From assembly GCA_052325425.1 (NCBI GenBank), contig JBKQUY010000025.1, forward strand, positions 1,321-65,320: a stretch of DNA of 64,000 bases, given 5' to 3'. Below are positions 1,781 through 60,157 of this stretch, in pieces. How positions within the stretch are numbered: position 1 is the stretch's first letter; the number at the start of each line of letters is the position of its first letter. The notes under the pieces are model-generated. The model had not been told where the DNA came from, searched no databases, and saw only the letters and a program-made list of their open reading frames with translations. The translations under genes were made by a program, and so were the position numbers. Source of the DNA: Bacteroidia bacterium (lineage in GTDB: Bacteria > Bacteroidota > Bacteroidia > JABEUT01).

Positions 1781-1851
1781 AATACCAGGTAATTGAGTTG
1801 CACAAATTTAATAATTTTGACAACCGTTTAAGAAAGGAGACATAGATATTT

Positions 1852-1917
1852 CGGGGTGTAGCGTAGTCCGGTTAGCGCGTCCCGTAGTACTGCGGGAAGG
1901 TCGGCAGTTCCAACTGC
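1852..1917 (+). pseudogene. degenerate tRNA-like copy 1 (tRNA 5' half + palindromic anticodon region, no 3' acceptor)
   Basis: Same 5' sequence as tRNA-Pro (cggggtgtagcgtagtccggttagcgcg). The anticodon arm is replaced by tcccgtagtactgcggga. The T-loop is degenerate (ttccaac) and the 3' acceptor strand is missing. It is preceded by the same TTGACA...CATAGATAT promoter-like unit. Confidence 0.55.
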
Positions 1918-1999
1918 TTTATTTTCACATTCTTTAGTATCACTGTTGCTCAATTTTAATAATTTTGACAACCCTTTAAGTAAAGGGACATAGATATTT

Positions 2000-2065
2000 C
2001 GGGGTGTAGCGTAGTCCGGTTAGCGCGTCCCGCAGTACTGCGGGAAGGTCGGCAGCTCCAACTGT
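2000..2065 (+). pseudogene. degenerate tRNA-like copy 2 (tandem 146-bp unit)
   Basis: Second tandem unit, with repeat period about 146 bp (1917-2061 vs 2062-2206). Perfect palindrome cccgcagtactgcggg in place of the anticodon loop. No acceptor 3' strand. Confidence 0.55.
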
Positions 2066-2147
2066 TTTATTTTCACATTCTTTAGTATCACTGTTGCTCA
2101 ATTTTAATAATTTTGACAACCCTTTAAGTAAAGGGACATAGATATTT

Positions 2148-2224
2148 CGGGGTGTAGCGTAGTCCGGTTAGCGCGCCACGTTCGGGACGTGGAGGTCGGC
2201 AGTTCGAATCTGCCTACCCCGACA
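2148..2224 (+). tRNA. tRNA-Pro (anticodon CGG)
   Basis: Cloverleaf by eye. Acceptor CGGGGTG/TACCCCG (with G-U). D arm GCGT/..GCGC. Anticodon stem CCACG/CGTGG with loop TTCGGGA (anticodon CGG). T arm GGCAG-TTCGAAT-CTGCC. Discriminator A. Confidence 0.75.
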
Positions 2225-24288: not shown

Positions 24289-24394
24289 CAATTTGATAAT
24301 TTGATGATTTGGAGATTTGATGATGAAAAAGGCAATATATATTGAGCTATTTGTTATTCAATTACCAAATTATCAAACTACCAAATCATCAAAT
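24289..24394. promoter_or_regulatory. ~105-bp palindromic (TTTGATGAT)n ... (ATCAAAT)n element ending 30 bp upstream of groES start; candidate heat-shock operator/5'-UTR structure
   Basis: Left arm caatttgataatttgatgatttggagatttgatgatg. Centre aaaaaggcaat.... Right arm ccaaattatcaaactaccaaatcatcaaatt (reverse complement of the left-arm family). Confidence 0.5.
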
Positions 24395-28826: not shown

Positions 28827-30263
28827 TTATTGATAATTTGAAAGAGTGATTTTTTTCTCCAGTTCCTGTATGTATCCTTTAAAGCGCTTATCCGTATCAA
28901 TCAGGTTGTTTACAGTTTTACAAGCATGCAATACAGTAGCATGGTCTTTTCCGCCGCATTGCAATCCAATACTTGCCAACGAAGATTTGGTGAAACTTTT
29001 TGCAAAATACATTGTTATCTGGCGGGCCTGTACAACTTCTCTCTTGCGGGTTTTAGACTTAATCATTTCAATAGGCAAGCCAAAATAGTCGCATACCACT
29101 TTTTGTATGTAATCAATGGAAACTTCACGTGCAGTATTCTTCACAAACTTGTCAATCATCTGCTTGGCAAGTTCAAGTGTGATAGCTTTTTTATTAAGTG
29201 ATGATTGTGCAACCAAAGATATTAATGCGCCTTCCAATTCACGGACATTGCTATTAATACTATAAGCAAGGTATTCCACTACATCACTCGATATATCAAG
29301 GCCTTCCGTATATATCTTTCTTTGAAGAATAGCAATGCGCGTTTCAAGGCCAGGCATTTGCAGGTCTGCGGCAAGTCCCCATTTGAAGCGTGATAACAGG
29401 CGTTGTTCCATACCTTCAATTTCAACCGGGGGTTTATCGCATGTGAAAACCAGTTGTTTACTATTTTGATGCAAATGATTAAATATATGGAAGAATACAT
29501 CCTGCGTTTTTTCCTTTTTCGCAAGAAACTGCACATCATCAACTATTAATACATCTATCATCTGGTAGAAGTTAATAAAGTCGTTCTGTGTGTTATTCTT
29601 GGTCGCGTCAATAAACTGGGTAGTGAATTTTTCCGATGACAGATAAAGAACAGTCTTATTAGGCAGGTTATTCTTTATCTCAAGCCCAATTGCGTGTGCA
29701 AGGTGGGTTTTGCCCAAACCTACACCCCCATATATAAACAGAGGGTTAAAGGATGTTCCTCCAGGTTTCTGTGCAACAGCAAATCCTGCAGAGCGTGCCA
29801 GGCGGTTACAATCCCCTTCGATAAAATTCTCGAATGAATAGTTAGGATTAAGCTGAGGAGCCACATCCACCTTTTTTAAACCGGGTATGATAAACGGGTT
29901 ACGAATAGGATTCTTATTAATATCAATAGGGATATTAACAGGTTGTCCTTTTGCCGCTTGCTTATTTGAGCCCGGTATTTTTACTGTGTAAGGTTTGGCA
30001 TTGCGTGTATTTTCCATAACAATGCTGTACTCTAAGCGTGAATCAGAGCCCAATTCCCTTTTAATTGCTTTCTTAAGTAAAGTGATGTAGTGCTCTTCCA
30101 GGTATTCATAAACAAACTGGCTGGGTACCTGGATAGTCAATACATTATCTTTTAACTTAATGGGCTTTATGGGCTCGAACCACGTTTTAAAGCTCTGCGG
30201 AGTTACGTTATCTTTGATAATCGCAAGACACTGTTCCCAAACTTTAACGTGCGTTTTTTCCAT
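28827..30263 (-). CDS. dnaA: chromosomal replication initiator protein DnaA
   Basis: AAA+ Walker A GGVGLGKTHLAHAIG. Box VII/sensor motifs. C-terminal DNA-binding domain ...VVQARQITMYFAKSFTKSSLASIGLQCGGKDHATVLHACKTV. Confidence 0.92.
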   Translation of the reverse strand: MEKTHVKVWEQCLAIIKDNVTPQSFKTWFEPIKPIKLKDNVLTIQVPSQFVYEYLEEHYITLLKKAIKRELGSDSRLEYSIVMENTRNAKPYTVKIPGSNKQAAKGQPVNIPIDINKNPIRNPFIIPGLKKVDVAPQLNPNYSFENFIEGDCNRLARSAGFAVAQKPGGTSFNPLFIYGGVGLGKTHLAHAIGLEIKNNLPNKTVLYLSSEKFTTQFIDATKNNTQNDFINFYQMIDVLIVDDVQFLAKKEKTQDVFFHIFNHLHQNSKQLVFTCDKPPVEIEGMEQRLLSRFKWGLAADLQMPGLETRIAILQRKIYTEGLDISSDVVEYLAYSINSNVRELEGALISLVAQSSLNKKAITLELAKQMIDKFVKNTAREVSIDYIQKVVCDYFGLPIEMIKSKTRKREVVQARQITMYFAKSFTKSSLASIGLQCGGKDHATVLHACKTVNNLIDTDKRFKGYIQELEKKITLSNYQ

Positions 30264-36968: not shown

Positions 36969-37067
36969 CGGGTTTACACTTTTTGACCCTTCTAAACATG
37001 CAATTACTTGGTAATCAAATATATAGTTTTTTAAAACCCCTGAAAAGTGTAAACCCGTGTAAACCCG
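36969..37067. repeat. ~100-bp inverted-repeat-bounded element, copy A (MITE-like)
   Basis: cgggtttacactttttgaccc...ccctgaaaagtgtaaacccgtgtaaacccg. The termini are inverted repeats (gggtttacacttttTGACCC / GGGGtgaaaagtgtaaaccc). About 85% similar to the copy at 52775..52874. Confidence 0.6.
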
Positions 37068-41116: not shown

Positions 41117-41261
41117 CTCTTCATATTGCCCTGTCTAACATACGTATCCGCAACAAAGGTAAAAAGTCTGAGCAGAAAGGCCTGGTTAAATCTATTGCTG
41201 TTTTCATTCCGAATAATATTTTCATTGAGCTATTGATAAAATTTGTACTACCTTTGTCCTG

Positions 41262-41335
41262 ACTTTAGGGGTGCTGTTAAGCTGAGATTATACCCTCAAG
41301 ACCTGATGCAGGTAATGCTGCCGAAGGGAAAAAGC
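41262..41335 (+). promoter_or_regulatory. TPP (thiamine pyrophosphate) riboswitch
   Basis: ttaGGGGTGCtgttaaGCTGAGAttataCCCtcaagACCTGATgcaGGTAATgctgccgaagGGAA. Contains the conserved CUGAGA, ACCUGAU and GGUAAUACC-like elements of the THI-box. Upstream of thiS-thiC. Confidence 0.85.
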
Positions 41336-41419
41336 GAGTTCCATCTCAGTTTATTATTCATTCCTGGTTACTTTAGCTAATGGCCAATGGCTGATAGCTG
41401 ATGGTTAATACATAAAAAC

Positions 41420-41667: not shown

Positions 41668-43584
<1,917 letters not shown>

Positions 43585-43641
43585 GCCCTTTGAATAATGA
43601 ACAGCAAGGCTCTCACGAATTCCTTGAAATAAATTAGAGAT

Positions 43642-44355
43642 ATGAGTAATATCGAACAAGGAATATCGAATAATGAAATAAACAACCAGAGTGAAAACTT
43701 CGGCGTTCAGCATTCAATGTTCAATATTCGATATTCTGCCCTTAAATTAGTTGTTATATCGCCCGAAAGTACCGTTGAAAATGAAACGGAAATGGTTAAT
43801 GCCCTGTTCAAAGAAGGATTAGCATATTTTCATTTGCGTAAACCTGGTTTCACTGCTAAAGAGCAGGAGCAATATCTTTCTGAAATTGAACCAAGGTACT
43901 TGAAAAATATCACTCTGCATCAACACCACAGTATTACTTTGAATAATCAAATATCCAGGCTTCATTTTAAGGAGCATGAGAGAGAAAGCATGGATATTTC
44001 AAAGAAGAAAGCAGGTATGCTTTTTTCAAGTTCAATACATGATACTGAAAATCTCTTCTCTTGGGGAGATTCAGAGGGGCAGTCTTCTTTATGGGATTAT
44101 GTTTTCCTTGGCCCTGTATATAGCAGCATATCAAAACCGGGTTATAGAAATCAAGCTCTTGAGAATATTGTATTGGAAAAGAGAGATGGAACACCTAAAA
44201 TAATTGCAATCGGAGGAATTGATTCATCCAATGCAGAGAATGTATTAAAAAGAGGTTTTGATGGTATTGCGGTATTGGGCGCTATCTGGAATGCCACCAA
44301 CCCCCCGGTGGGAACTTTGAGCACATTTAAAACATTACAGGCAATATGCAATTAA
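43642..44355 (+). CDS. thiamine-phosphate synthase-family protein (ThiE/TenI-like, divergent)
   Basis: TIM-barrel ThiE-like motifs (YFHLRKP..., IAIGGI). Second ThiE-family gene in the operon, so possibly TenI-like. Confidence 0.6.
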   Translation: MSNIEQGISNNEINNQSENFGVQHSMFNIRYSALKLVVISPESTVENETEMVNALFKEGLAYFHLRKPGFTAKEQEQYLSEIEPRYLKNITLHQHHSITLNNQISRLHFKEHERESMDISKKKAGMLFSSSIHDTENLFSWGDSEGQSSLWDYVFLGPVYSSISKPGYRNQALENIVLEKRDGTPKIIAIGGIDSSNAENVLKRGFDGIAVLGAIWNATNPPVGTLSTFKTLQAICN

Positions 44356-45134
44356 ACAGGCCCATAGTGTTAAGTATTGCAGGATACGACCCATCAGCAG
44401 GAGCAGGGCTGCTGGCTGATATTAAAACCTTTGAGCAGCATAAAGTTTATGGTATGGGAATAATTTCATCTCTGACTTTTCAGACAGAAAATGAGTTTTT
44501 TGATGTAAAATGGATAAATGAAAAGGAGATTATTTCTCAATTAGAGAAGTATTTAAAACACTTTCAGATTAAGGTTGTAAAATTCGGGTTGATGAAAAAC
44601 TGGCGGATTTTAAATAACATAACAGGTTTAATAAAAGGCTTTAATGAAAAAATAAAAATTATTGTTGACCCGGTATTAAAGCCATCGGCAGGCAATAACT
44701 CATTTTTAGCGGGAGATAAAAAAATGATATTATCTGTATTGAATAAAATTGACCTGCTTACGCCAAACTATGATGAGGCAGTATTTTTGGGTAATAATAA
44801 AGATGGAATTGACGGGGCAAAAGAATTATCAAAATATTGCAATATATTTTTAAAAGGTGGGCATAATCCTAAAAAACCCGGTACCGATTATTTATTTACC
44901 TGTAATTGTAGAGACGCCATGCATGGCGTCTCTACAATGCATGGCGTTTCTACCATGACCCCCAATTCAACAAAAATATTTCCCAAACATGGTTCCGGCT
45001 GCGTGCTATCGGCTGCCATAACTGCAAATCTTGCTTTAGGATTTGAACTGCATGAAGCATGTAAAAATGCCAAGCAATACACTGAAAAATTTTTGAATAG
45101 CAATAAATCTTTATTGGGATACCATGTACAATAG
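44346..45134 (+). CDS. thiD: hydroxymethylpyrimidine/phosphomethylpyrimidine kinase ThiD (carries an in-frame palindromic insertion)
   Basis: VLSIAGYDPSAGAGLLADIKTF, ...HGSGCVLSAAI. About 12 extra residues (CRDAMHGVSTMHGVSTM) relative to canonical ThiD between the LFT and HG(T/S)GC motifs. Confidence 0.85.
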   Translation: MQLNRPIVLSIAGYDPSAGAGLLADIKTFEQHKVYGMGIISSLTFQTENEFFDVKWINEKEIISQLEKYLKHFQIKVVKFGLMKNWRILNNITGLIKGFNEKIKIIVDPVLKPSAGNNSFLAGDKKMILSVLNKIDLLTPNYDEAVFLGNNKDGIDGAKELSKYCNIFLKGGHNPKKPGTDYLFTCNCRDAMHGVSTMHGVSTMTPNSTKIFPKHGSGCVLSAAITANLALGFELHEACKNAKQYTEKFLNSNKSLLGYHVQ

Positions 45135-45813
45135 ATTACAATACATTTCGCAGGGTTCAACTATAAATGAGCATATCCGCAATATAAATCTTGCTTTGGA
45201 TAATGGATGCAGGTGGATACAATTACGAATTAAAGCCCCCCTTCCCCCCGAAAGGGGGATACCTGAAGGAGCAATATTTGTCCCCTCTTTGGGGGGTAGG
45301 GAGGCTGCACTTAAAGTAAAGCAATTATGCGCCTCTTATAAAGCAACATTTATTGTTAATGATTATATAGATATTGCAAAAGAGGCCGATGCTGATGGAG
45401 TCCACTTAGGGTTACAAGATAGTTCTGTTGCCAATGCAAGAGAAGTATTAGGCAGCAAGAAAATAATCGGGGGAAGCGCCAATACTTACTCCGATTGCCT
45501 TATGCGGATAAAAGAGGGCTGTAATTATATAGGCTTAGGACCTTTCAGATATACAACTACAAAAGCAAAACTCAGCCCCATACTGGGAACTGAAGGCTTC
45601 AGGAAAATCATGTCGCAGTTATCTCTTGATAAAAATGCCCCGCCGGTTTATGCAATTGGCGGCATAGTGGCAGAGGACGTTGAAGAGTTGATGGATACGG
45701 GTATATATGGGATTGCTGTTTCCGGCGTTATAACCAATGCCACAGATAAGAAACAAATTATAAAGTCATTAAATTTTAAACTGAACCAAAAGCATGTTAA
45801 CCATAGCCGATAA
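45124..45813 (+). CDS. thiE: thiamine-phosphate synthase ThiE (with GC-rich in-frame insertion)
   Basis: IQLRIK...FIVNDY...GVHLGLQD...GGIV motifs. About 13 extra residues between LRIK and FIVNDY encoded by GC-rich hairpin-forming DNA. Confidence 0.85.
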
Positions 45814-46588
45814 ATCATTTACATCAAGGTTATTTTTAGGTACCGGCAAATTTTCTTCCATGCAGGTAATGGCCGATGCAGTGCTGGCATCGGGTTCCGA
45901 ACTGGTAACTCTTGCATTAAAAAGAGTAGATACCAAAAGTCTCACCTCAAGGGGAGATTTAGAGGGGCATGCCCAGGATGACATGGTAAACTATTTAAAC
46001 CACCCTCATATACAATTGCTGCCCAATACTTCGGGAGTGAGAAATGCCAAAGAAGCTGTTTTTGCCGCGCATTTGGCCCAAGAGGCGCTTGGAACAAAGT
46101 GGCTGAAATTAGAAATCCATCCTGACCCGCGCTACCTTATGCCGGATGGGGTTGAGACGCTTAAAGCAACAGAAGAATTGGCAAAGGAAGGCTTTATCAT
46201 TTTGCCTTACATACATGCCGACCCTGTTTTATGCAAACGGCTTGAAGACGCCGGGGCCGCGGCTGTAATGCCTCTTGGCTCACCTATAGGAAGCAATAAG
46301 GGGTTAAAGACAATTGACTTTTTAGAAATTATTATAGAACAAAGTAATGTGCCGGTAATTGTTGACGCGGGTATAGGCGCACCGTCAGACGCAGCCAAAG
46401 CTATGGAAATAGGCGCCGCCGGAGTTTTAGTAAATACCGCAATTGCAGTGTCTCGTAATCCGGTAGAAATGGCATGTGCATTTAAGCAAGCTGTTGAAGC
46501 CGGAAGAACAGCCTACCTGGCCGGATTGGGAAAAATTTCAGCTACGGCATATGCATCGAGCCCGTTGACTGCTTTTCTTGATGAATAA
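45794..46588 (+). CDS. thiG: thiazole synthase ThiG
   Basis: [21 protein letters not shown]-terminus. 264 aa. Confidence 0.88.
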
Positions 46589-46675
46589 TGAATTGAAAAT
46601 GAGAAACGGTGAAAAATATATAGGCAGTGTAATGTCTCTCTCCTTTTACAAGGAGAGAGATAAAAGAGTGAGGAT

Positions 46676-47794
46676 ATGAATAATTTCGCGCAAATATTTG
46701 ACAGCTATAACTGGAAGGAAGTAGAGCAAAGCATTTACTCAAAGAGGGAAGATGATGTTTTGCGCGCATTGGTCTCCGATAAGCTAACACCCGAAGATTT
46801 TAAAGCCCTTATTTCTCCTGCCGCTGCCCCATTTTTAGAGCAAATGACATTGAAAAGCAGGCAACTTACATTAAAGCGCTTTGGAAATACCATACAGCTT
46901 TATGCGCCTATGTACCTGAGCAATGAGTGTAATAATATATGCGTCTATTGCGGATTCAGTTTCGACAATAAAATAAGGCGAAGAACCCTTACCATGGAAG
47001 AAATTTCAAAGGAAGCGGCTGCAATAAAACAAATGGGCTTCGATCATATCTTGCTTGTTACCGGGGAAGCTTTTCTTACAGTCAACCTGCCTTATTTTAC
47101 AAAAGCTATTCAAACTATCCGCCCTTTTTTCTCAAACATATCAATCGAGGTGCAGCCTTTGGAAGCAGAGGAATACGCTAAGTTGCACAACGAGGGACTT
47201 TATGCCGTTTTGGTTTACCAGGAGACATACAATAAGGAGAACTATAAAAATTATCACCCGAAAGGGAAAAAATCTAATTTTTATTACCGGCTTGATACTC
47301 CCGATAGGATTGGCCAGGCAGGCATACATAAAACAGGGCTCGGCGTTTTACTTGGCCTTGAAGACTGGCGCACCGATTCATTCTTTTGCGCCCTGCACCT
47401 CGATTATCTCACAAAAAAGTACTGGCAAACAAAGTACTCCATTTCATTCCCCCGGATACGGCCTGCAGAAGGCGTTCATATTGACAAGAAAAATATTACG
47501 GACAAAGAACTGGTGCAATTAATAACTACTTACCGTTTATTTAATGAAGATGTGGAGCTATCTATGTCAACACGCGAATCGCAGAAATTCAGAAATAATA
47601 TCATCAAATTGGGAATTACATCCATGAGCGCCGGTTCAAAGACTAACCCCGGCGGATATGCAGTTGAGCCCGAATCGCTTAAACAATTTGACATTGATGA
47701 TACCCGCACACCGCAGGAAATGGTTGAAATTATCAGGATGCAGGGATATGAGCCTGTTTGGAAAGACTGGTTTCAATTGAAAATGGAAAGTTGA
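46676..47794 (+). CDS. thiH: 2-iminoacetate synthase ThiH (radical SAM)
   Basis: CNNICVYCGF radical-SAM Cx3Cx2C motif. 372 aa. Confidence 0.85.
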   Translation: MNNFAQIFDSYNWKEVEQSIYSKREDDVLRALVSDKLTPEDFKALISPAAAPFLEQMTLKSRQLTLKRFGNTIQLYAPMYLSNECNNICVYCGFSFDNKIRRRTLTMEEISKEAAAIKQMGFDHILLVTGEAFLTVNLPYFTKAIQTIRPFFSNISIEVQPLEAEEYAKLHNEGLYAVLVYQETYNKENYKNYHPKGKKSNFYYRLDTPDRIGQAGIHKTGLGVLLGLEDWRTDSFFCALHLDYLTKKYWQTKYSISFPRIRPAEGVHIDKKNITDKELVQLITTYRLFNEDVELSMSTRESQKFRNNIIKLGITSMSAGSKTNPGGYAVEPESLKQFDIDDTRTPQEMVEIIRMQGYEPVWKDWFQLKMES

Positions 47795-47899
47795 AAATGG
47801 AGAATTATAAAAACATAATAATAATACGCCTTAGAAAGTGTTTATCACTTTCAATTTTCAATTTTCAACTTTCAATTATTGTTTTACTATTCACTACTT

Positions 47900-48610
47900 A
47901 TGCTTAGCCAGGCAGAATTTAACCGCTATACCAAACACCTTATGCTGCCTGAAATCGGGTATGATGGGCAGGTTAAAATTAAATCTGCGCGTGTGCTTGT
48001 AATTGGCGCCGGGGGCTTAGGTTGCCCTGTTTTACAATATTTAACTGCGGCAGGTATCGGAACTATAGGTGTTGCCGATTTTGATGTGGTTGATATGACA
48101 AACCTGCAAAGGCAGATTTTATATACAGATGATGATATTGGAAAACATAAAGCAGATATTGCTATAAATAAGATTTCCAAACAAAACCCCAATGTAAAAT
48201 TGATTCCTTTCAAAACTCTTATTGATGAGAGTAATGCACAGGATATTATCAGCCAATTTGATATTGTAATTGATGGCTCTGACAATTTTTTGACGAGATA
48301 TATTGTAAATGATGCTTGTGTCAGCTTAGGCAAACCGCTTGTTTATGGCAGTATTCTGGGGTTTGAGGCGCAGGTAGCGGTATTTAATAATATTGGGAGC
48401 AAAAATTTACGCGATATATTCCCCGAACCGCCAAATCCTGAAGAAGTGCCAAACTGTTCTGAGAATGGTGTATTGGGTACCGTTACGGGCATTACAGGTT
48501 GCCTGCTTACCCATGAAGCAATCAAAGTTATCTTAAATATTAGCCCTATGCATAATCAACTGCTTGTAATTGACCTGGTTAATTTTGGAGTTACAAGGAT
48601 TGATTTCTGA
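47900..48610 (+). CDS. thiF: ThiF/MoeB-family sulfur-carrier adenylyltransferase
   Basis: LSQAEFNRYTKHL..., VLVIGAGGLGCPVLQYLTAAGIG Rossmann motif. The ORF-track start at 47879 is TTG. ATG at 47900. Confidence 0.8.
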   Translation: MLSQAEFNRYTKHLMLPEIGYDGQVKIKSARVLVIGAGGLGCPVLQYLTAAGIGTIGVADFDVVDMTNLQRQILYTDDDIGKHKADIAINKISKQNPNVKLIPFKTLIDESNAQDIISQFDIVIDGSDNFLTRYIVNDACVSLGKPLVYGSILGFEAQVAVFNNIGSKNLRDIFPEPPNPEEVPNCSENGVLGTVTGITGCLLTHEAIKVILNISPMHNQLLVIDLVNFGVTRIDF

Positions 48611-49977: not shown

Positions 49978-52116
49978 ATGAAGCGAATTTGCAGAGTCAT
50001 ATTAATTTTTTTCTTTTTTTCTTTGAATAATTTTGCGCAGAAACACGCTATTGATTCCCTGCAAAATATTTTAAGAACTGAGAAAGAGGACACCAGTAAA
50101 GTAAATACGTTGAATACGCTGGCTGACAGGCTGCAAAGAAAGGGTAACTATGACAGTTCTATAGCTTGTGCTTACAGTGCAGAGGTTCTGGCTGAAAAAC
50201 TGGGCTTTAATAAAGGTTTAGCGAATGCTTTATTAGGTTCGGGAATTGCAAACTGGCGCAAAGGAAATTATTCCAAAGCAATGGAATATGACATTAAGGC
50301 TTTGGCAATAAACAAGGAAATTGGTAATAAAAATGGCATGGCGGCCAATTTAGCCAATCTTGCCAGTGTTTGCCGTAACCAGGGCAATTTCCCAAAAGCG
50401 CTGGAATACGATTTCAAGGCATTGGATATAAACCAGGAAACCGGAAATGAGAATGGCATTGCGATGATATTGGGGAATATTGGAAATATTTACGGAGGCC
50501 AGGGCAATTTCCCAAAAGCGCTTGAATATTTTCAGAAAGCATTGGTTATAAACCAGGGATTAGGGAATAAAGTTTTTATTGCCCTCAATTTTGGCAATAT
50601 TGGAAATGTATATGAGGAACAGGGCAATTACCCTATGGCGCTCGAATATGATGCTAAAGCTTTGGCTATTGAACAGGAAATGGGAGACAATTCGGGCATT
50701 GCGAGGAACCTTAGCAATATGGGCGTAATTTATTATGACGAAGGTAATTATTCAATGGCGCAGGAATATTATTTTAAAGCGCTGGCAATTGAAAAGGGAA
50801 TAGGAAATAAGGATGGCGTTGCCCTTAACCTGGGTAACATTGGTATTATTTATACCAAACAGAAAAGATATAAGCAGGCCATCGCTTACCTTGATTCATC
50901 TCTCCGGTTTTCTGAAGGCACAGGAGATAAGGATGTAATAAAGAGCGCTTACAAAGGCTTGGCTGAATTAGACAGTGCTACAGGTAATTTTAAAACTGCG
51001 TATGATGATTATAAAAAGTTTATCGCTTACCGCGACAGTTTAATTAATGAAGCGAATACCAAAAGAACTGTCCAGGCAGAGATGAATTACGAATTTGAAC
51101 AAAAACAGGCCGTTGAGAAAGCAGAACAAGATAAAAAAGATGCCATAGCTGAGGCAGAAAAGCGAAAACAGAAAATTATTATCTGGTCAGTAGTAAGCGG
51201 GTTGCTGTTGGTTGTTGTTTTCGCGGGGTTTATTTACCGTTCTTTACGCATAACCCGTAAACAAAAGAACTTGATTGAAAGGCAGCGGGAGAAAGTTGAA
51301 ACCCAGAAAACACTTATCGAACAGCAAAAGGCATTAGTAGAAGAAAAGAATAAAAATATCCTGGACTCGATTAATTACGCTAAAAGCCTGCAGGATGCCA
51401 TATTACCACCAATAAGCCTTATTACAAAATATCTTCCTGAATCCTTTGTGCTATATAAGCCTAAAGACATAGTGGCAGGTGATTTCTATTGGATGGAACG
51501 GGTAGAGACGCCATGCATGGCGTCTCTGCTGATTGCTGCGGCAGATTGCACAGGGCATGGTGTACCCGGGGCCCTTGTGAGTGTGGTATGTTCCAATGCC
51601 CTTAACAGAACTGTAAAGGAGTTTAAGATTACCGAACCGGGAAAAATATTGGATAAAGTAAGGGAACTTGTCCTTGAAACATTTGAAAAAAGCGAAAATA
51701 ATGTACAGGATGGAATGGATATTTCCTTAGCCTCCCTTAGTCTCTCCGAGGGAGGGATACAAATACAATGGAGCGGAGCATACAATCCTTTGTTGTATGT
51801 GCATAATAATGAAATTAAAGAGATAGCGCCTGATAAGCAGCCTATTGGCAAAACAGACAATCCTAAACCGTTTATTACAAATTTGTTACATGTAAATAAA
51901 GGCGATACATTGTATTTATTTACTGATGGCTATGCTGACCAGTTCGGAGGCCCGAAAGGAAAGAAGTTTAATTACAAACAGCTCCAGGAAAAGTTATTAT
52001 CTATAAGCCATCAGCCTTTAGCAGAACAAAAACAGGCACTTGAAAAAGCGTTTGAAAAATGGAAAGGCGAATTGGAGCAGGTGGACGATGTATTAATTAT
52101 TGGCATAAGAGTTTAG
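49978..52116 (+). CDS. TPR-repeat, single-pass membrane sensor with C-terminal PP2C/SpoIIE-family serine phosphatase domain (carries the 24-bp palindromic insertion)
   Basis: Signal peptide (MKRICRVILIFFFFSLNNFAQ). About 9 TPR units (GN.......Y..KAL.I). TM helix IIIWSVVSGLLLVVVFAGFIY. Coiled-coil. PP2C-like ...GDFYW....DCTGHGVPGAL...TDGYADQ. Confidence 0.8.
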   Translation: MKRICRVILIFFFFSLNNFAQKHAIDSLQNILRTEKEDTSKVNTLNTLADRLQRKGNYDSSIACAYSAEVLAEKLGFNKGLANALLGSGIANWRKGNYSKAMEYDIKALAINKEIGNKNGMAANLANLASVCRNQGNFPKALEYDFKALDINQETGNENGIAMILGNIGNIYGGQGNFPKALEYFQKALVINQGLGNKVFIALNFGNIGNVYEEQGNYPMALEYDAKALAIEQEMGDNSGIARNLSNMGVIYYDEGNYSMAQEYYFKALAIEKGIGNKDGVALNLGNIGIIYTKQKRYKQAIAYLDSSLRFSEGTGDKDVIKSAYKGLAELDSATGNFKTAYDDYKKFIAYRDSLINEANTKRTVQAEMNYEFEQKQAVEKAEQDKKDAIAEAEKRKQKIIIWSVVSGLLLVVVFAGFIYRSLRITRKQKNLIERQREKVETQKTLIEQQKALVEEKNKNILDSINYAKSLQDAILPPISLITKYLPESFVLYKPKDIVAGDFYWMERVETPCMASLLIAAADCTGHGVPGALVSVVCSNALNRTVKEFKITEPGKILDKVRELVLETFEKSENNVQDGMDISLASLSLSEGGIQIQWSGAYNPLLYVHNNEIKEIAPDKQPIGKTDNPKPFITNLLHVNKGDTLYLFTDGYADQFGGPKGKKFNYKQLQEKLLSISHQPLAEQKQALEKAFEKWKGELEQVDDVLIIGIRV

Positions 52117-52278
52117 TTTTACCCAGGGAAAAGAATAAAAAGTCTGCTATTTATACCCTTATTTTTATTATAGTTAATAAAAAATCATATCAATTATTAG
52201 GAATTAATCTTTTTTATATGTAAATTTGTCTTATGAAAATCGAGGTTTGTATTAAATAATTTTTAATTAATAAACTTA

Positions 52279-52662
52279 ATGGAAGCAAACATTACTGAAA
52301 GTACCTTAAAAACTCCCTTTATTAAATTTGACCCGACTGCCGGCAAGCTTGAAATTAAGGGGAGGTCAATTTCCGAAAACTCCCTGGAGTTTTTCAGTAA
52401 CCTGATAGACAACCTTAATAAATATGCTGTTTCTCCTACAGCTCCTACCCAGGTTGATATTCAACTGGAATACATCAATACCGCTTCTTCCAGGTGCATA
52501 CTTGAGATATTCAGATGCTTAGAGAATATTCATAAGAAAAATGGCAACGTAAATATTAATTGGCATTACGAAGAAGACGATGAAAATATGTGCGAAGTAG
52601 GCGAAGGCTACAAGGCAATTATAAATGTGCCTTTTAATATTACCTGCCTGGGGTTAAATTAA
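52279..52662 (+). CDS. SiaC-family regulatory phosphoprotein (DUF1987), predicted partner-switch substrate of the upstream PP2C
   Basis: 127 aa. Conserved TP.I.FD...G.L...G.S.ENS.EFF, LEYINTASS and NWHYEEDDENM motifs align with Pseudomonas SiaC (…LRLLYLNTSS…RWHYDRRNE…). Confidence 0.65.
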   Translation: MEANITESTLKTPFIKFDPTAGKLEIKGRSISENSLEFFSNLIDNLNKYAVSPTAPTQVDIQLEYINTASSRCILEIFRCLENIHKKNGNVNINWHYEEDDENMCEVGEGYKAIINVPFNITCLGLN

Positions 52663-52774
52663 TTCACTCTTACTTTTTAGTTAGGGATAAGGAGTAAGGG
52701 ATATGGGGTAAGGAATAAGTATTGATAAGGATTTTAGCAAAAACATTGATAACATTGATAATCAGTTATTTAAC

Positions 52775-52874
52775 TTGGGGTTACACTTTTTGACCCCTGT
52801 AAACAGTTAATGCGTTAAAAATCAATATATTAACTAAAAAAACACCTCAAAAAGTGTAACCTTGTGTAACCCCA
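52775..52874. repeat. ~100-bp inverted-repeat-bounded element, copy B (MITE-like)
   Basis: ttggggttacactttttgacccctgtaaaca...cctcaaaaagtgtaaccttgtgtaaccccaa. Same termini and architecture as 36969..37067. Confidence 0.6.
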
Positions 52875-52887
52875 ACTGAACCACTGA

Positions 52888-54399
52888 TTACTGCCTGCCA
52901 ATCTCTTTAAATGCTTTCCCAAGACAGTCAGTTATATCTTCGGCAATTAGTGAGTTTTCGCCAAATTCATCTGCGGCAATATCTCCTGCAAGCCCATGCA
53001 GGTAAACTCCCAATATGGCTGCCTGTTTTGGAGTATAGCCCTGGGCCATTAAACCGGTAATTATTCCGGTAAGGGTATCGCCACTGCCACCTGTGGCCAT
53101 GCCTGGATTACCTGTAGAATTAAAGTAAACCTCGCCATCAGGAGTTGCAATGGCAGAATGAGCGCCTTTTAATACAAGGTACACGCCATATTTTATGGCA
53201 AATTCACATTGCAGAATATACGCATCATAGCCTGAAGTGGTTTTACCCGCAAGCCTTGCAAATTCGCCGGGGTGAGGAGTAAAGATGCACCCTTTGGGCA
53301 AAAAAGAAAGCCATGTTTTATTTTCCGCAAGTATATTAAGGGCATCGGCATCAAGCACCATGGGTACTTTCGACTGAATCAATAACTTTATCACTTGCGC
53401 GGTAGCTTTCGAAGTTCCAATACCCGGGCCCGCGCCAATAACATTAAACTTAGCCAGGTCTTTAATGCCAGATATTTCCTTCTCTTCTTCATCAACCATA
53501 ACCATTGCCTCCGGCACAGCGGTCTGCAAAATTTCATAGCCGCATTGCGGAATATGGACAGTAAGCAAACCTACTCCTGAACGCAGGCAGGCTTTGGCAG
53601 CAAGTACACAAGCCCCCATTTTTCCGTGTGACCCTGCGGCCAAAAGCGCATGGCCATAATTTCCCTTATGCGAATATTTTTGCCTCGGCCTGAGCATGGG
53701 TGTTATCATTTCCCTTGTTACAAAATAATTGGAGGACTTTTGCGAAGCGATAAATTCTTTATCAATACCTATGTGCAGTATATAAAAATCGCCCACATGC
53801 TGCACATTTTCGGCGAAGAGAAATGAAAGTTTAGGCGATTCAAAAGTCAGCGTGGCATTGGCATTAATGATATTTTTCCTGTCGGCTTTCGAATTATCCT
53901 CCATCATTAATCCTGAAGGCACATCAATAGCCACAACAGGACAATGGATTGAATTTATCTTTTGGATAACCGTAGCCAGTTTCCCTTCTACCGGCCTTGA
54001 TAGACCTGAACCTAAGATAGCATCAATAATCAGTGCAGGTTTATTATCAACTACAATATCTTCATCACTGGTCAATTCTTTTACTTTTATCCCGCTGATT
54101 TCATCAAGCCTCTCTTTATTGGCAAGAAACTCATCTGAAGCTTTTGAAAAATATGGAACAATATAAATCTCGGCATTATATCCTTTATTATACAAAAGCC
54201 TGCCAATGGCAAGCCCGTCGCCGCCATTATTGCCCATTCCGCAGACAATAATAAAACGCGTTTGTTTTGAAAAATGCCCTATAATCCAGTTAAAACAAGC
54301 AGTAGCGGCTCTTTCCATTAAATCTATGGATGAAACAGGTTCGTGAACTATAGTATAGGCATCGGCGGCATGTGTTTGTTCGGCGTTAAGAATCTTCAT
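52888..54399 (-). CDS. nnr: bifunctional NAD(P)H-hydrate repair enzyme Nnr (YjeF-N epimerase + YjeF-C dehydratase)
   Basis: 503 aa. N-terminal YjeF-N. C-terminal carbohydrate-kinase-like GGSGDTLTGIITGL. Confidence 0.85.
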   Translation of the reverse strand: MKILNAEQTHAADAYTIVHEPVSSIDLMERAATACFNWIIGHFSKQTRFIIVCGMGNNGGDGLAIGRLLYNKGYNAEIYIVPYFSKASDEFLANKERLDEISGIKVKELTSDEDIVVDNKPALIIDAILGSGLSRPVEGKLATVIQKINSIHCPVVAIDVPSGLMMEDNSKADRKNIINANATLTFESPKLSFLFAENVQHVGDFYILHIGIDKEFIASQKSSNYFVTREMITPMLRPRQKYSHKGNYGHALLAAGSHGKMGACVLAAKACLRSGVGLLTVHIPQCGYEILQTAVPEAMVMVDEEEKEISGIKDLAKFNVIGAGPGIGTSKATAQVIKLLIQSKVPMVLDADALNILAENKTWLSFLPKGCIFTPHPGEFARLAGKTTSGYDAYILQCEFAIKYGVYLVLKGAHSAIATPDGEVYFNSTGNPGMATGGSGDTLTGIITGLMAQGYTPKQAAILGVYLHGLAGDIAADEFGENSLIAEDITDCLGKAFKEIGRQ

Positions 54400-57595: not shown

Positions 57596-60157
57596 TTGCA
57601 TAGGGAGAATTTTATATATAAATTGAAGGTTTCCAGGTCATTGAACCATTGGCTAACAGCAGTTTTTTTGTTGCTGATACCTTTAATGGCGTTTTCTCAG
57701 TCATCGGTTACTTTGAATTGTAGAATAACCGAGAATGGCAAAAAACTTTCCGGTGTTGTGGTATCAATTTACGCTAATGGAAGTCTTCTTAGAACTGTCA
57801 ATACTGATAATGGAAAGTGTGATATAGATCTTGAACTGGGTGTGGATTATATTATTGCATTTACTAAACCCGGTTACATTACAAAACGCCTGGAGTTCAA
57901 TACAAAAAATGTACCTCCTGACAGGGCAAAAGAAGGATTTGGACAATACCCTATTGAAACTGAATTATTTCCGGAAATACCCGGGACCGACATTGATAAA
58001 ATACTTCAGCAACCGGTGGGTAAGTTTTCATATGACAAAAGCGCAAACAAGGCATTAGGAGATTTTGTATCTGATGAAGCTTATCATCAATCCATTCAAA
58101 GTATGTTGGATAAGATAGAAGCGGCAAGGAAAGCAGCAGAAGAAAAAGAGAAAGTGATTGACGCGCAATACAAAAAAATTATTGCTAAAGCAGATGGAGA
58201 GTTTGGCGCTAAGGATTATGCAAATGCTAAAACTGATTACCAGGCAGCTTCGCAATTGAAACCCGAGGAACAATATCCAAAAGACCAGCTTGCAGCAATA
58301 GACAAAGCCATAAACCAGGCCAGCGCTGATGCGGCAAGAAAAGCACAACAGCAAAAAACCGCAGACTCATTAGCTGCAGCCAAAAAAGCGGCGGATGCAA
58401 AAGCATCGGCGGATGCGGCGAAAAAAGCACAACAGCAAAAAACTGTGGACTCATTAGCGGCGGTTAAGAAAGCGGCAGCAGACAAAGCTGCAGCAGATGC
58501 GGCAAGAAAAGCTCAACAGCAAAAAACTGCGGACTCATTAGCGGCAGCTAAGAAAGCACAACAGCAAAGAACTGCGGACTCATTGGCCGCCGTGAAGAAA
58601 GCGGCGGCGGACAAAGCAGCAGCAGATGCAGCAAGAAAAGCACAACAGCAAAAAACTGCGGACTCATTGGCCACGGTTAAGAAAGCGGCAGCAGACAAAG
58701 CCGCAGCAGATGCAGCGAGAAAAGCACAACAGCAAAAAACTGCTGATTCATTAGCGGCGGTTAAGAAAGCGGCAGCGGACAAAGCGGCAGCAGATGCTGC
58801 AAGAAAAGCTCAGCAGCAAAAAATTGCTGATTCATTAGCGGCAGCTAAGAAAGCACAACAGCAAAGAACCGCTGACTCGCTAGCTGCTGCTAAGAAAGCA
58901 GCAGCGGACAAAGCTACAGCAGATGCGGCAAGAAAAACGCAACAGCAAAAAACAGCGGACTCATTAGCGGCGGTTAAGAAAGCTCAGCAGCAAAGAACCG
59001 CTGACTCACTGGCCGCTGCCAGGAAAGCGGCAGCGGACAAAGCGGCAGCAGATGCAGCCAGAAAAGCGCAACAGCAAAAAACTGCTGATTCATTAGCGGC
59101 AGCTAAGAAAGCTCAACAGCAAAGAACCGCTGACTCGCTAGCCGCTGCTAAGAAAGCGGCAGCGGACAAAGCTACAGCAGATGCGGCAAGAAAAGCGCAA
59201 CAGCAAAAAACTGCTGATTCATTGGCAGCGGTTAAGAAAGCTCAGCAGCAAAGAACCGCTGACTCACTCGCTGCTGCCAGGAAAGCGGCAGCAGACAAAG
59301 CCATAGCAGATGCGGCAAGGAAGGCACAACAGCAAAAAATTGCTGATTCATTAGCGGCAGCTAAGAAAGCTCAGCAGCAAAGAACCGCTGACTCGCTAGC
59401 CGCTGCTAAGAAAGCGGCAGCAGACAAAGCGGCGGCAGATGCTGCCAGGAAGGCACAACAGCAGAGAACAGCCGACTCGTTAGCAGGAATAAAAAAAGCA
59501 GCCGATAAGGCTCGTAATGATAAACTGGCAGAACTAAAAATACAAGCCAAGTACGATTCTCTTATTAGAATAGCAGATGCCGCTTTCAAAAAGAGTAATT
59601 ATTCTGTCGCAAAATCCAACTATTCTTCAGCCTCTGTAGTTAAACCAGGAGAATCATACCCTAAGAATCAGATAGATTCCATTGCAAAGTTGCAATCTGC
59701 TCAAAGTGCTCAAAATGACAAGTATAATGCAATCATATCCAAAGCAAATCAAAATTATTTTACTAAAAACTATAAGGTCGCTCTCACTCTGTACCAACAA
59801 GCTTCTCAATTAGAGCCAACTGCAAATTATCCTAAACAACAAATAGCCAAGATTCAATCAATTATATCAGACCAGCAAAGTCCGTCAAATAACCAAACGC
59901 AACCACCACCCCCACCTAAAGATATTCCTTCAGATTCTTCGGCAGTGGATTCTTTAGCGCTCAAATACAAACCCGGTGTTACGGAAGAGCACATTTATGA
60001 ACCGGGTTGTGAGGTTACCCGCCGCATTGTTGTAAAAAATGGACATGGCTGGGTTTATTTCCGGAAAGTATATAATTGGGGACAAACCTATTACTACAAG
60101 GGTGAACAACCTGTTACAGAAGACACGTGGAATGTTGAAACACAAAACTCAAATTAA
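57596..60157 (+). CDS. secreted protein with carboxypeptidase-regulatory-like N-domain, TPR-like motifs and a ~390-aa array of tandem Ala/Lys/Gln-rich repeats
   Basis: Signal/TM segment. About 13 copies of ADAARKAQQQ(K/R)TADSLAA(A/V)KKA[AADKAA] units. Confidence 0.6.
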   Translation: MHRENFIYKLKVSRSLNHWLTAVFLLLIPLMAFSQSSVTLNCRITENGKKLSGVVVSIYANGSLLRTVNTDNGKCDIDLELGVDYIIAFTKPGYITKRLEFNTKNVPPDRAKEGFGQYPIETELFPEIPGTDIDKILQQPVGKFSYDKSANKALGDFVSDEAYHQSIQSMLDKIEAARKAAEEKEKVIDAQYKKIIAKADGEFGAKDYANAKTDYQAASQLKPEEQYPKDQLAAIDKAINQASADAARKAQQQKTADSLAAAKKAADAKASADAAKKAQQQKTVDSLAAVKKAAADKAAADAARKAQQQKTADSLAAAKKAQQQRTADSLAAVKKAAADKAAADAARKAQQQKTADSLATVKKAAADKAAADAARKAQQQKTADSLAAVKKAAADKAAADAARKAQQQKIADSLAAAKKAQQQRTADSLAAAKKAAADKATADAARKTQQQKTADSLAAVKKAQQQRTADSLAAARKAAADKAAADAARKAQQQKTADSLAAAKKAQQQRTADSLAAAKKAAADKATADAARKAQQQKTADSLAAVKKAQQQRTADSLAAARKAAADKAIADAARKAQQQKIADSLAAAKKAQQQRTADSLAAAKKAAADKAAADAARKAQQQRTADSLAGIKKAADKARNDKLAELKIQAKYDSLIRIADAAFKKSNYSVAKSNYSSASVVKPGESYPKNQIDSIAKLQSAQSAQNDKYNAIISKANQNYFTKNYKVALTLYQQASQLEPTANYPKQQIAKIQSIISDQQSPSNNQTQPPPPPKDIPSDSSAVDSLALKYKPGVTEEHIYEPGCEVTRRIVVKNGHGWVYFRKVYNWGQTYYYKGEQPVTEDTWNVETQNSN
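58321..59480 (+). repeat. in-frame tandem DNA repeat (42-bp subunits, 84/126-bp units) inside 57596..60157
   Basis: Repeated gcagatgcggcaagaaaagcacaacagcaaaaaactgcggactcattagcggc... with minor variants. Confidence 0.75.

What the first reader, a model, noticed from the sequence alone, without database searches (positions are those of the whole stretch)
49978..52662. TPR-PP2C membrane sensor phosphatase paired with a SiaC-like (DUF1987) protein: a partner-switch module lacking the kinase and diguanylate cyclase
The 127-aa downstream protein aligns well with Pseudomonas SiaC (conserved TP.I.F, ENS.E(F/L)F, L.Y(L/I)NT(S/A)S, (R/N)WHY...E motifs), which in Pseudomonas is the substrate of a PP2C phosphatase (SiaA). 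Here the PP2C enzyme carries an extracytoplasmic 9-TPR sensor domain. No SiaB-like kinase or SiaD-like GGDEF gene is adjacent. The module may be wired to a different output in Bacteroidota, and its phosphatase gene additionally carries the palindromic insert.
Basis: partly seen in the sequence, partly recalled or inferred. Interest (0 to 1): 0.5.

Follow-up and report, generated by a model that had tools for sequence, protein, structure and literature searches.

The report
Sensor phosphatase with kinase-less SiaC partner
Two neighbouring genes in an uncultured Bacteroidia genome encode a membrane sensor phosphatase and the small switch protein it probably dephosphorylates, as in the Pseudomonas SiaABCD biofilm switch, but the usual kinase gene is missing beside them and no c-di-GMP enzyme serves as output; this is a lineage-specific variant of a common, unstudied module, not a new kind of system.

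Summary
Gene 49978-52116 (+) encodes a signal peptide, eight 40-residue TPR units (not nine), one membrane helix and a SpoIIE/PP2C phosphatase. All SiaA active-site residues are present. Gene 52279-52662 (+) is a clear SiaC/DUF1987 protein: Pfam 4.9e-39, gapless alignment to P. aeruginosa SiaC with Thr68 conserved, model TM 0.86-0.90. No SiaB-type kinase, other kinase, STAS or GGDEF gene was found in the 64 kb.

Context changes the picture. In 78 of 80 Bacteroidota species representatives, a SiaB-family kinase (DUF6272) sits directly upstream of SiaC. It is often preceded by a sensor PP2C and a lipoprotein. None of about 100 loci has a GGDEF gene. So a non-c-di-GMP output is general for the phylum. 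The missing adjacent kinase is peculiar to this lineage.

Only one other sequence, an 81%-identical Logan contig, shares the PP2C-gap-SiaC layout. SiaC there is under purifying selection (dN/dS about 0.12). Both differ from canonical SiaCs mainly on helices α1-α3.

Best reading: a satellite SiaA/SiaC branch using a kinase encoded elsewhere. This is untested, because the rest of the genome could not be searched. It is a new variant of a known kind, of modest interest.

The parts
49978..52116 (+). Gene for a 712-aa sensor phosphatase: signal peptide, periplasmic TPR domain, membrane helix, coiled-coil linker, SpoIIE/PP2C domain (NCBI MGP8214785.1, annotated from a later start)
   Evidence: ORF; Pfam TPR and SpoIIE; NCBIfam SiaA C-terminus 5.4e-50; start codon supported by homologue N-termini; accession
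49978..50040 (+). Signal peptide MKRICRVILIFFFFSLNNFAQ
   Evidence: Read from the sequence. Homologues share an 'MK..hydrophobic..AQ' segment followed by the conserved IDSL..L.TEKEDTNKVNTLN. Export itself is inferred.
50098..51057 (+). Eight 40-residue TPR units (aa 41-360), inferred to be periplasmic
   Evidence: Register print; Pfam TPR_12, TPR_1, TPR_7 and TPR_10; 120-nt tandem periodicity; NCBIfam FimS-like TPR+TM match 6.3e-37
51175..51237 (+). Single internal transmembrane helix IIIWSVVSGLLLVVVFAGFIY, followed by the basic stretch RSLRITRKQK
   Evidence: Kyte-Doolittle scan: the only 19-residue windows above 1.6 start at aa 397-408; coordinates
51478..52113 (+). PP2C (SpoIIE-type) catalytic domain with all SiaA active-site equivalents. 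D502 (GDFYW) = D457. D523/C524/G526 (DCTGHG) = D474/C475/G477. D581 (GMD) = D534. D650/G651/D654 (TDGYAD) = D600/G601/D604. D703 (VDDV) = D653.
   Evidence: Alignment to 6K4E; residue list from PMC7647112; coordinates
51505..51528 (+). In-frame palindrome-encoded segment ETPCMASL in the beta-hairpin between the first two metal-binding Asp residues. It replaces the usual 4-residue turn, giving a loop of 18 instead of 14 aa.
   Evidence: Palindrome. The loop is 14 aa in 82 of 99 homologues, and other homologues carry other inserts at the same place.
52117..52278 (+). 162-nt intergenic spacer with no terminator-like hairpin. Its 3' half (52186-52278) is conserved with the sister contig and contains TAAATTTG at 52221-52228, a match to the Bacteroidetes -7 box TAnnTTTG, 51 nt before the siaC-like ATG.
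   Evidence: Identity to L008 is 75% in the 3' half, against 48% in the 5' half and 20% downstream of siaC. No terminator. The motif alone occurs at chance frequency (87 found, 85.6 expected).
52279..52662 (+). Gene for a 127-aa SiaC-family (DUF1987) protein (NCBI MGP8214786.1). The Thr68 codon is at 52480-52482, in the motif Y65-I-N67-T68-A-S at the N-terminus of helix alpha2.
   Evidence: Pfam; PDB alignment; model and fold search; dN/dS 0.12 against L008; accession

Best explanation
The two genes form a satellite branch of the SiaABC-type partner-switching network that is widespread in Bacteroidota.

Proposed mechanism:
1. The membrane protein senses something in the periplasm through its TPR domain. 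This step is inferred from topology.
2. It passes the signal through its single membrane helix and coiled-coil linker to a catalytically competent cytoplasmic PP2C domain. Catalytic competence is shown at the level of residues.
3. The PP2C domain removes phosphate from Thr68 of the neighbouring SiaC-like protein. This is inferred by homology with SiaA and SiaC.
4. The phosphate is put on by a SiaB-family kinase encoded elsewhere in the genome. This is inferred and untested.
5. Unphosphorylated SiaC then binds and modulates a partner that is not a SiaD-type diguanylate cyclase. The absence of a cyclase and the changed contact residues are shown; the partner's identity is unknown.

The siaC-like gene probably also has its own promoter.
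For: 1. Identity of both proteins is established.
2. All SiaA active-site residues are present.
3. Y65, N67 and T68 are invariant.
4. In canonical Bacteroidota loci, a PP2C whose catalytic domain is 42% identical to the window's lies in one gene string with SiaB and SiaC.
5. The PP2C-spacer-SiaC layout is retained in the sister contig L008, while sequence downstream of siaC is unrelated.
6. siaC is under purifying selection: dN 0.10, dS 0.85.
7. A kinase acting in trans is plausible. Bacteroidales loci L057, L069 and L075 carry a canonical SiaB-SiaC pair plus a second, orphan SiaC paralogue a few kb away. Other orphan SiaCs exist in L089, L090, L093, L101 and L102.
8. No GGDEF gene occurs in any locus, using a validated probe.
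9. SiaD-contact residues are changed.
Against: - No kinase was found in 64 kb, and the rest of the genome could not be searched.
- The nearest TPR-PP2C homologues (54-60% identical) are not next to SiaC, and such phosphatases occur in many paralogous copies. Adjacency here could therefore be incidental.
- Positions 103, 107 and 110 on helix alpha3 are 100% invariant in 80 canonical SiaCs. They are changed in the window and also differ between the window and L008. This looks like loss of one binding partner, possibly the kinase itself.
- No experiment exists on any Bacteroidota member.
Confidence: 0.5

Rival explanations
1. Kinase-free variant. The lineage has lost SiaB for this SiaC, which is therefore never phosphorylated. 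It acts through its amount (own promoter) as a constitutive binding partner, possibly as a regulator or pseudo-substrate of the adjacent TPR-PP2C rather than as its substrate.
For: - No SiaB lies in 64 kb, whereas 78 of 80 canonical loci have it adjacent.
- The otherwise invariant alpha3 positions 103, 107 and 110 are released from constraint in this clade.
- The conserved promoter-like 3' half of the spacer suggests independent expression.
- PMC8457831 proposes that DUF1987 proteins modulate adjacent proteins.
Against: - Y65, N67 and T68 and the surrounding QLEY.NT.SS.CIL motif remain strictly conserved under purifying selection. That is expected if phosphorylation still matters. These same residues also form the partner-binding core in P. 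aeruginosa, so the argument is not decisive.
Confidence: 0.2
2. Incidental neighbours. The TPR-PP2C is one of many paralogous sensor phosphatases acting on another substrate, such as a canonical SiaC or a STAS protein elsewhere. The orphan SiaC paralogue is served by other enzymes, and the two genes merely lie side by side.
For: - TPR-TM-SpoIIE proteins are very numerous (4661 hits at E<=1e-20) and often occur several per contig. The closest ones are not next to SiaC.
- In L102 a 58%-identical TPR-PP2C and an orphan SiaC lie 5 kb apart on opposite strands.
- Orphan SiaCs occur in unrelated contexts.
- siaC seems to have its own promoter.
Against: - Adjacency, orientation and spacer length (162 and 167 nt) are kept in L008 at dS about 0.85, while the downstream flank is not.
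- The PP2C domain's only solved relative by sequence is SiaA.
- PP2C genes are part of the canonical SiaB-SiaC gene string in about half of the loci.
Confidence: 0.25
3. Decaying remnant of a canonical PP2C-lipoprotein-SiaB-SiaC operon after a deletion, with the palindrome insert inactivating the phosphatase.
For: - The lipoprotein and SiaB genes are missing.
- The SiaC branch is long.
- An insert lies inside the catalytic domain.
Against: - Both ORFs are intact.
- siaC has dN/dS 0.12.
- All catalytic residues are intact.
- The insert is in frame, in a surface hairpin that carries inserts of 1-16 extra residues in other homologues.
- The phosphatase belongs to the TPR-type family, not the Y_Y_Y type of canonical operons.
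Confidence: 0.05

Closest known systems
Pseudomonas aeruginosa SiaABCD (PA0172-PA0169): SiaA PP2C phosphatase, SiaB kinase, SiaC phosphoprotein, SiaD diguanylate cyclase (PMC7647112, PMC8457831, PMC7278518)
   Same: - A membrane-anchored PP2C with the same catalytic residues and the same DS..YA..Q.AILP linker.
- A SiaC fold with Thr68 at the N-terminus of alpha2 and Y65/N67/T68 conserved.
- Gene order with the phosphatase upstream of SiaC on the same strand.
   Different: - No SiaB between the two genes, nor within 64 kb.
- No SiaD or GGDEF gene.
- The sensor part is a periplasmic 8-TPR domain.
- SiaC residues that grip the SiaD stalk (D79, R103, E110, D114, D29, Y31) are replaced.
- Both proteins score below the NCBIfam equivalog cutoffs: SiaA 170.6 against 700, SiaC 91.6 against 150.
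Canonical Bacteroidota module seen only in databases: sensor (Y_Y_Y/beta-propeller)-PP2C, about 270-300 aa lipoprotein, SiaB-family kinase (PF19788 DUF6272 / NF038262), SiaC (for example L004, L005, L012, L014)
   Same: - Same phylum.
- SiaC 55-62% identical.
- PP2C domain 42% identical.
- No GGDEF partner.
   Different: - The window lacks the lipoprotein and kinase genes.
- The phosphatase has TPR input instead of Y_Y_Y input.
- SiaC differs at 20 of 79 positions that are at least 90% conserved in 80 canonical sequences, mostly on helices alpha1-alpha3.
Classical partner-switching systems (B. subtilis RsbU/RsbV/RsbW and SpoIIE/SpoIIAA/SpoIIAB; P. aeruginosa HptB-HsbR-HsbA-HsbD)
   Same: A PP2C phosphatase acts on a small alpha/beta phosphoprotein whose unphosphorylated form binds a partner.
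   Different: - SiaC is not a STAS protein by sequence and is only remotely STAS-like by fold (TM about 0.46 to RsbV and TM1442).
- No anti-sigma kinase or sigma factor lies nearby.
Bacteroidota TPR-TM sensors such as Porphyromonas gingivalis FimS histidine kinase
   Same: Signal peptide, periplasmic TPR array, single membrane helix, cytoplasmic output domain. The NCBIfam FimS model matches the TPR+TM part at 6.3e-37.
   Different: The output domain is a PP2C phosphatase, not a histidine kinase.

Membership tests
SiaC family / DUF1987 (PF09345) | Match to the family HMM above the curated cutoff | tested here: met
   133.1 bits against a cutoff of 24.5, E 4.9e-39, covering positions 2-118 of the 120-position model
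SiaC family / DUF1987 (PF09345) | SiaC fold | tested here: met
   AlphaFold model pLDDT 87.4. Foldseek to 6K4F, 6KKO, 6KKP and 7E6G gives TM 0.85-0.90 and rmsd 1.6-1.9 A.
SiaC family / DUF1987 (PF09345) | Phospho-acceptor Thr68 in the Y-x-N-T-(S/A)-S motif at the start of helix alpha2 | tested here: met
   Gapless alignment puts window T68 on P. aeruginosa T68. In the model, helix alpha2 runs from residue 68 to 87. The residue is invariant in 26 and in 80 homologues.
SiaC family / DUF1987 (PF09345) | Actually phosphorylated and dephosphorylated on Thr68 | not testable with these tools
   Needs phosphoproteomics or in vitro assays
P. aeruginosa-type SiaC (NCBIfam equivalog NF038265) | Score above the equivalog cutoff, and residues that bind the SiaD stalk | tested here: not met
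   91.6 bits against a cutoff of 150. D79>R, R103>N, L107>V, E110>G, D114>I, D29>R, Y31>I.
SiaABCD system | SiaA-type PP2C phosphatase encoded next to SiaC | tested here: met
   SpoIIE domain. The only PDB sequence hit is SiaA 6K4E at 5e-31. All active-site residues are present. The protein falls below the SiaA equivalog cutoff (170.6 against 700) because the N-terminal sensor differs.
SiaABCD system | SiaB kinase encoded with SiaC | tested here: not met
   No hit in 64 kb by tblastn, by SiaB HMM, or in the Pfam scans of its larger ORFs. The rest of the genome was not available.
SiaABCD system | SiaD (GGDEF) effector | tested here: not met
   The GGDEF probe, validated on PDB with SiaD as top hit, finds nothing in the window or in about 100 related loci. 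The Pfam scans are negative.
Canonical Bacteroidota PP2C-lipoprotein-SiaB-SiaC module | SiaB-family kinase (PF19788/NF038262) immediately upstream of SiaC | tested here: not met
   Present in 78 of 80 species-representative loci and absent here
PPM/SpoIIE phosphatases (PF07228) | Family HMM match and the metal-binding Asp/Gly residues | tested here: met
   66.9 bits against a cutoff of 25. Equivalents of D457, D474, G477, D534, D600, G601, D604 and D653 are all present.
STAS anti-sigma-factor antagonists | STAS domain by sequence | tested here: not met
   No STAS Pfam hit. Only remote fold similarity, TM about 0.46.

The most novel reading that the evidence does not exclude
This SiaC has escaped its kinase. 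It is a neo-functionalised paralogue that keeps the Y65/N67/T68 binding core but has a re-modelled alpha2/alpha3 face. It works without phosphorylation, as a dedicated regulator or adaptor of one periplasm-sensing TPR phosphatase.

A wider, separate hypothesis is that Bacteroidota run a large, unstudied SiaB/SiaC hub, fed by dozens of TPR- and Y_Y_Y-type sensor phosphatases and ending in an unknown output that is not c-di-GMP. This locus would be a natural dissected piece of that network.
Probability: 0.15. Interest if true: 0.6.

Novelty: new variant of a known kind. Interest (0 to 1): 0.3.

Why it matters
SiaABC-type switching has been studied only in Pseudomonas, where it drives c-di-GMP synthesis and biofilm formation. 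The related loci fetched here show that Bacteroidota carry a very conserved SiaB-SiaC core with no cyclase, so the output in a whole phylum is unknown. The window offers a minimal version: one sensor phosphatase and one SiaC, with the kinase unlinked or lost. It could help to separate which SiaC surfaces serve the kinase and which serve the effector. On its own it is a lineage-specific gene-order variant of annotated families, not a new mechanism.

Tried and rejected
- Exact-protein look-ups for the window SiaC and its identical database entry P0001 found no indexed contig. The 712-aa phosphatase was found only on a 2.8-kb metagenome contig. The rest of the source MAG could therefore not be searched for a kinase.
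- The genome-contig scan returned nothing above 62% identity, so the lineage is not a GTDB representative. The metagenome scan found no close relative either.
- Sigma-70 promoter and terminator scans were at background level and uninformative for Bacteroidota. TAnnTTTG occurs at chance frequency window-wide, so the promoter call rests on position and conservation only.
- Rfam found no RNA family in the locus.
- Literature searches for DUF1987, SiaB/SiaC or SpoIIE partner switching in Bacteroidetes found no relevant study. The EMBO J paper describing the SiaB-SiaC interface is not held, so kinase-contact residues could not be mapped.
- Pseudogene or remnant reading: rejected on dN/dS and intact catalytic residues.
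- Fusion of a kinase domain into the phosphatase: rejected, because Pfam shows only TPR and SpoIIE.
Full report
**What is in the sequence.**
Two same-strand ORFs occupy the reported interval.

The first is best started at ATG 49978 and gives 712 aa. Its N-terminus, MKRICRVILIFFFFSLNNFAQ, has the form of a signal peptide. Nearly all homologues begin with an equivalent hydrophobic segment, followed by the conserved IDSL..L.TEKEDTNKVNTLN. NCBI's model of the same gene (MGP8214785.1, 697 aa) starts after this segment.

Residues 41-360 form eight 40-residue TPR units in perfect register, not nine (Pfam TPR_12 7.8e-47). A single hydrophobic helix follows at aa 400-420, then a basic stretch and a coiled-coil linker. 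The last part is a SpoIIE/PP2C domain (PF07228, 66.9 bits against a cutoff of 25).

With a signal peptide and one membrane helix, the TPR array should be periplasmic and the phosphatase cytoplasmic. This is an inference from topology. It matches the FimS-like TPR+TM architecture that NCBIfam detects at 6.3e-37.

**The phosphatase looks active.**
The PP2C part has one sequence relative in the PDB: P. aeruginosa SiaA-PP2C (6K4E, 5e-31). The match includes the DS..YA..Q.AILP linker. The SiaA paper lists the conserved active-site residues as D457, D474, G477, D600, G601 and D653, with C475, D534 and D604 assisting (PMC7647112). By the alignment, every one has its equivalent here: GDFYW, DCTGHG, GMD, TDGYAD and VDDV (coordinates).

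The 22-nt perfect palindrome GAGACGCCATGCATGGCGTCTC (51505-51526) has a second copy inside a thiD-like gene at 44911-44932, with 0 expected by chance. It encodes ETPCMASL in the hairpin between the first two metal-binding aspartates.
- In 82 of 99 homologues this loop is 14 residues long (consensus WMER.GD.ILIAAA). Here it is 18.
- Other homologues carry unrelated inserts of up to 16 extra residues at the same spot.
- The insert is therefore in frame, in a permissive surface loop, and unlikely to inactivate the enzyme.

**The small protein is a SiaC.**
- ORF 52279-52662 (127 aa, MGP8214786.1) matches Pfam SiaC/DUF1987 at 4.9e-39.
- It aligns without gaps to P. aeruginosa SiaC over residues 8-121 at 3.5e-19. 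Numbering is therefore identical, and Thr68 falls on Thr68.
- A model built on 26 homologues (pLDDT 87.4) places Thr68 at the first turn of helix alpha2.
- The model superposes on SiaC crystal structures with TM 0.85-0.90. The next-best folds are STAS antagonists at TM about 0.46.
- The protein falls below the NCBIfam equivalog cutoff for Pseudomonas-type SiaC (91.6 against 150).

**No kinase or cyclase in the window.**
- SiaB-family proteins taken from related loci found nothing in the 64 kb, either by tblastn or by an HMM built from them.
- Pfam scans of 49 of the window's 52 larger ORFs show phosphate transport, thiamine biosynthesis, dnaA, groEL, T9SS cargo and similar genes. None has a HATPase, protein kinase, STAS or GGDEF domain.
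- My GGDEF probe was a consensus written from memory. I checked it against the PDB, where its best hit is SiaD itself (1.5e-30), followed by WspR and PleD. It has no hit in the window or in any fetched locus.

**What relatives look like.**
The window SiaC has 381 database relatives.

In long contigs the standard arrangement is:
1. a sensor (Y_Y_Y/beta-propeller)-PP2C,
2. a lipoprotein of about 270-300 aa with no Pfam family,
3. a DUF6272 protein,
4. SiaC.

DUF6272 is the SiaB-family kinase (NF038262, 6.6e-51).

A scan of one genome per GTDB species found 587 relatives. I analysed the best 80 loci, all of them Bacteroidota: Chitinophagales, Sphingobacteriales, Flavobacteriales and Bacteroidales, including the isolate Carboxylicivirga marina.
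- A SiaB ORF lies directly upstream of SiaC in 78 of 80. One exception is at a contig edge.
- A PP2C gene lies within 10 kb in about half.
- No locus has a GGDEF gene.

Absence of a cyclase is therefore general in this phylum. Absence of the adjacent kinase is not.

**How unusual the window's layout is.**
Only one other sequence shares it: a 1,222-bp Logan contig (L008) whose SiaC is 81% identical.
- Upstream it has the C-terminus of a homologous PP2C (...EQVDDVLIIGIRL), then a 167-nt spacer, then siaC.
- Nucleotide identity between the two is 82% in siaC and 75% in the 3' half of the spacer. It is 48% in the 5' half and 20% downstream of siaC.
- The conserved part holds TAAATTTG, 51 nt before the ATG. 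This matches the Bacteroidetes -7 box. The motif by itself is at chance frequency in the window, so this is only suggestive of a dedicated promoter.
- No terminator-like hairpin separates the two genes.
- siaC is under purifying selection: dN 0.10, dS 0.85, ratio about 0.12. It is not a relic.

No closer relative exists in the JGI metagenome scan.

**The phosphatase family.**
TPR-TM-SpoIIE proteins are abundant in Bacteroidia: 4661 hits at E<=1e-20, often with several on one contig.
- The nearest homologues (54-60% identical) are not next to SiaC.
- One of them (L102) has an orphan SiaC, 51% identical to the window's, lying 5 kb away on the other strand.

This suggests many sensor phosphatases per genome, which weakens any argument from adjacency alone.

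**Orphan SiaCs and the kinase question.**
- Orphan SiaC genes, with no SiaB within 10 kb, occur in L089, L090, L093, L096, L101 and L102.
- Three Bacteroidales loci carry both a canonical SiaB-SiaC pair and a second, divergent SiaC between guaA and an S41 protease gene. One kinase serving more than one SiaC is therefore a realistic arrangement.
- SiaB-SiaC fusion proteins followed by a PP2C gene also exist (L094, L095, L097, L099).
- In a neighbour-joining tree, every orphan sits on a long branch. The window plus L008 form a long-branch sister to the whole canonical clade.

**Where the window SiaC has changed.**
Among 80 distinct canonical sequences, 79 positions are at least 90% conserved. 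The window differs at 20 of them, and 14 lie on helices alpha1-alpha3.
- Y65, N67 and T68 are unchanged.
- Positions 103, 107 and 110 are invariant D, A and D in canonical proteins. They are N, V and G in the window and S, S and R in L008. That face has lost its constraint in this clade.
- In P. aeruginosa these positions, with D79 and D114, grip the SiaD stalk (PMC8457831).
- Several of the P. aeruginosa contact residues are also different in all Bacteroidota SiaCs (D29>R, Y31>I, D79>K/R, R103>D/N), consistent with a different effector.
- I could not determine whether alpha3 contacts the kinase in the SiaB-SiaC complex (6KKO). The paper is not held.

**Most likely mechanism.**
By homology with the tested Pseudomonas system (PMC7647112, PMC7278518, PMC8457831):
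1. The TPR domain senses a periplasmic cue.
2. The PP2C domain dephosphorylates SiaC~P at Thr68.
3. Free SiaC binds an effector that is not a diguanylate cyclase.
4. A SiaB-family kinase encoded elsewhere resets the switch.

Steps shown here: the identity, fold and intact catalytic and acceptor residues of both proteins; the absence of a local kinase and cyclase; conservation of the gene pair; and purifying selection. Steps inferred: topology, substrate relationship, kinase in trans, and the effector.

I give this reading about 0.5. The rivals are a kinase-free SiaC acting through its abundance or on the phosphatase itself (0.2), incidental adjacency (0.25) and a decaying remnant (0.05).

**Novelty and verdict.**
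Both proteins belong to named families and would be annotated routinely. The module type is known from Pseudomonas. The Bacteroidota version is common in databases but, as far as the held literature shows, unstudied. The window holds a rare gene-order variant of it, found in two sampled lineages. I rate it a new variant of a known kind, with interest about 0.3.

The more interesting open question lies outside the window: what the highly conserved, cyclase-less SiaB-SiaC core of Bacteroidota controls.

Noticed in passing
window 44905-44960 and 51505-51528: The palindrome GAGACGCCATGCATGGCGTCTC lies in frame in two unrelated genes. In the thiD-like gene it extends to a 34-nt perfect palindrome plus a partial third arm (peptide DAMHGVSTMHGVST). 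TPR-PP2C homologues elsewhere carry other short inserts in the same loop (for example FPLPQGEGQGEVV and APLPPGGSS..PLEGREA). This suggests small palindromic elements that insert in frame into coding sequence.
   Followed up: partly
window 52759-52890: An imperfect hairpin element of about 130 nt lies between the convergent siaC-like and NAD(P)HX repair genes (RNA MFE -35.8 kcal/mol, z -5.35). Its arm motif GGGGTTACACTTTTTGA recurs near 36970 and 57430. It may be a MITE/REP-like repeat or a bidirectional terminator.
   Followed up: partly
L004 8541-9365, L001 8514-9374, L005 6565-7377 and about 40 other loci: A conserved lipoprotein of about 270-300 aa with no Pfam or NCBIfam family sits between the sensor PP2C and SiaB in canonical Bacteroidota modules. 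It may be a periplasmic co-sensor.
   Followed up: partly
L094 1586-2494, L095 4673-5581, L097 9488-10399, L099 7830-8741: Single ORFs match both the SiaB and SiaC models, so they are kinase-substrate fusions. A PP2C gene follows directly.
   Followed up: no
L069 5604-5984, L075 6937-7320, L057 2149-2553: Bacteroidales loci have a second, divergent orphan SiaC paralogue between guaA and an S41/PDZ protease gene, a few kb from the canonical SiaB-SiaC pair.
   Followed up: partly
window 49978 versus the NCBI start (MGP8214785.1, 697 aa): The deposited annotation starts the phosphatase gene 15 codons too late and removes the signal peptide that homologues share.
   Followed up: yes
window 41257-41347 and 41749-48610: A TPP riboswitch (63.1 bits) lies upstream of a thiC-thiS/E-thiD-thiE-thiG-thiH-thiF-like thiamine operon.
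   Followed up: no
window 1797-2223: A 148-nt tandem repeat (2.6 copies, 96% identical) ends in a tRNA-Pro(CGG) called by ARAGORN at 2148-2223. The Rfam gathering search did not list this tRNA. The earlier copies may be partial tRNA duplications.
   Followed up: no
window 57596-60157: A large secreted protein has a long, highly regular Ala/Lys/Gln repeat (AAKKAQQQKTADSLAA; nucleotide periods 84, 129 and 258) and no Pfam match.
   Followed up: no
window 28827-30263 (-): dnaA is present, so the window may lie near the replication origin. An AT-rich imperfect palindrome lies at 24291-24386.
   Followed up: no
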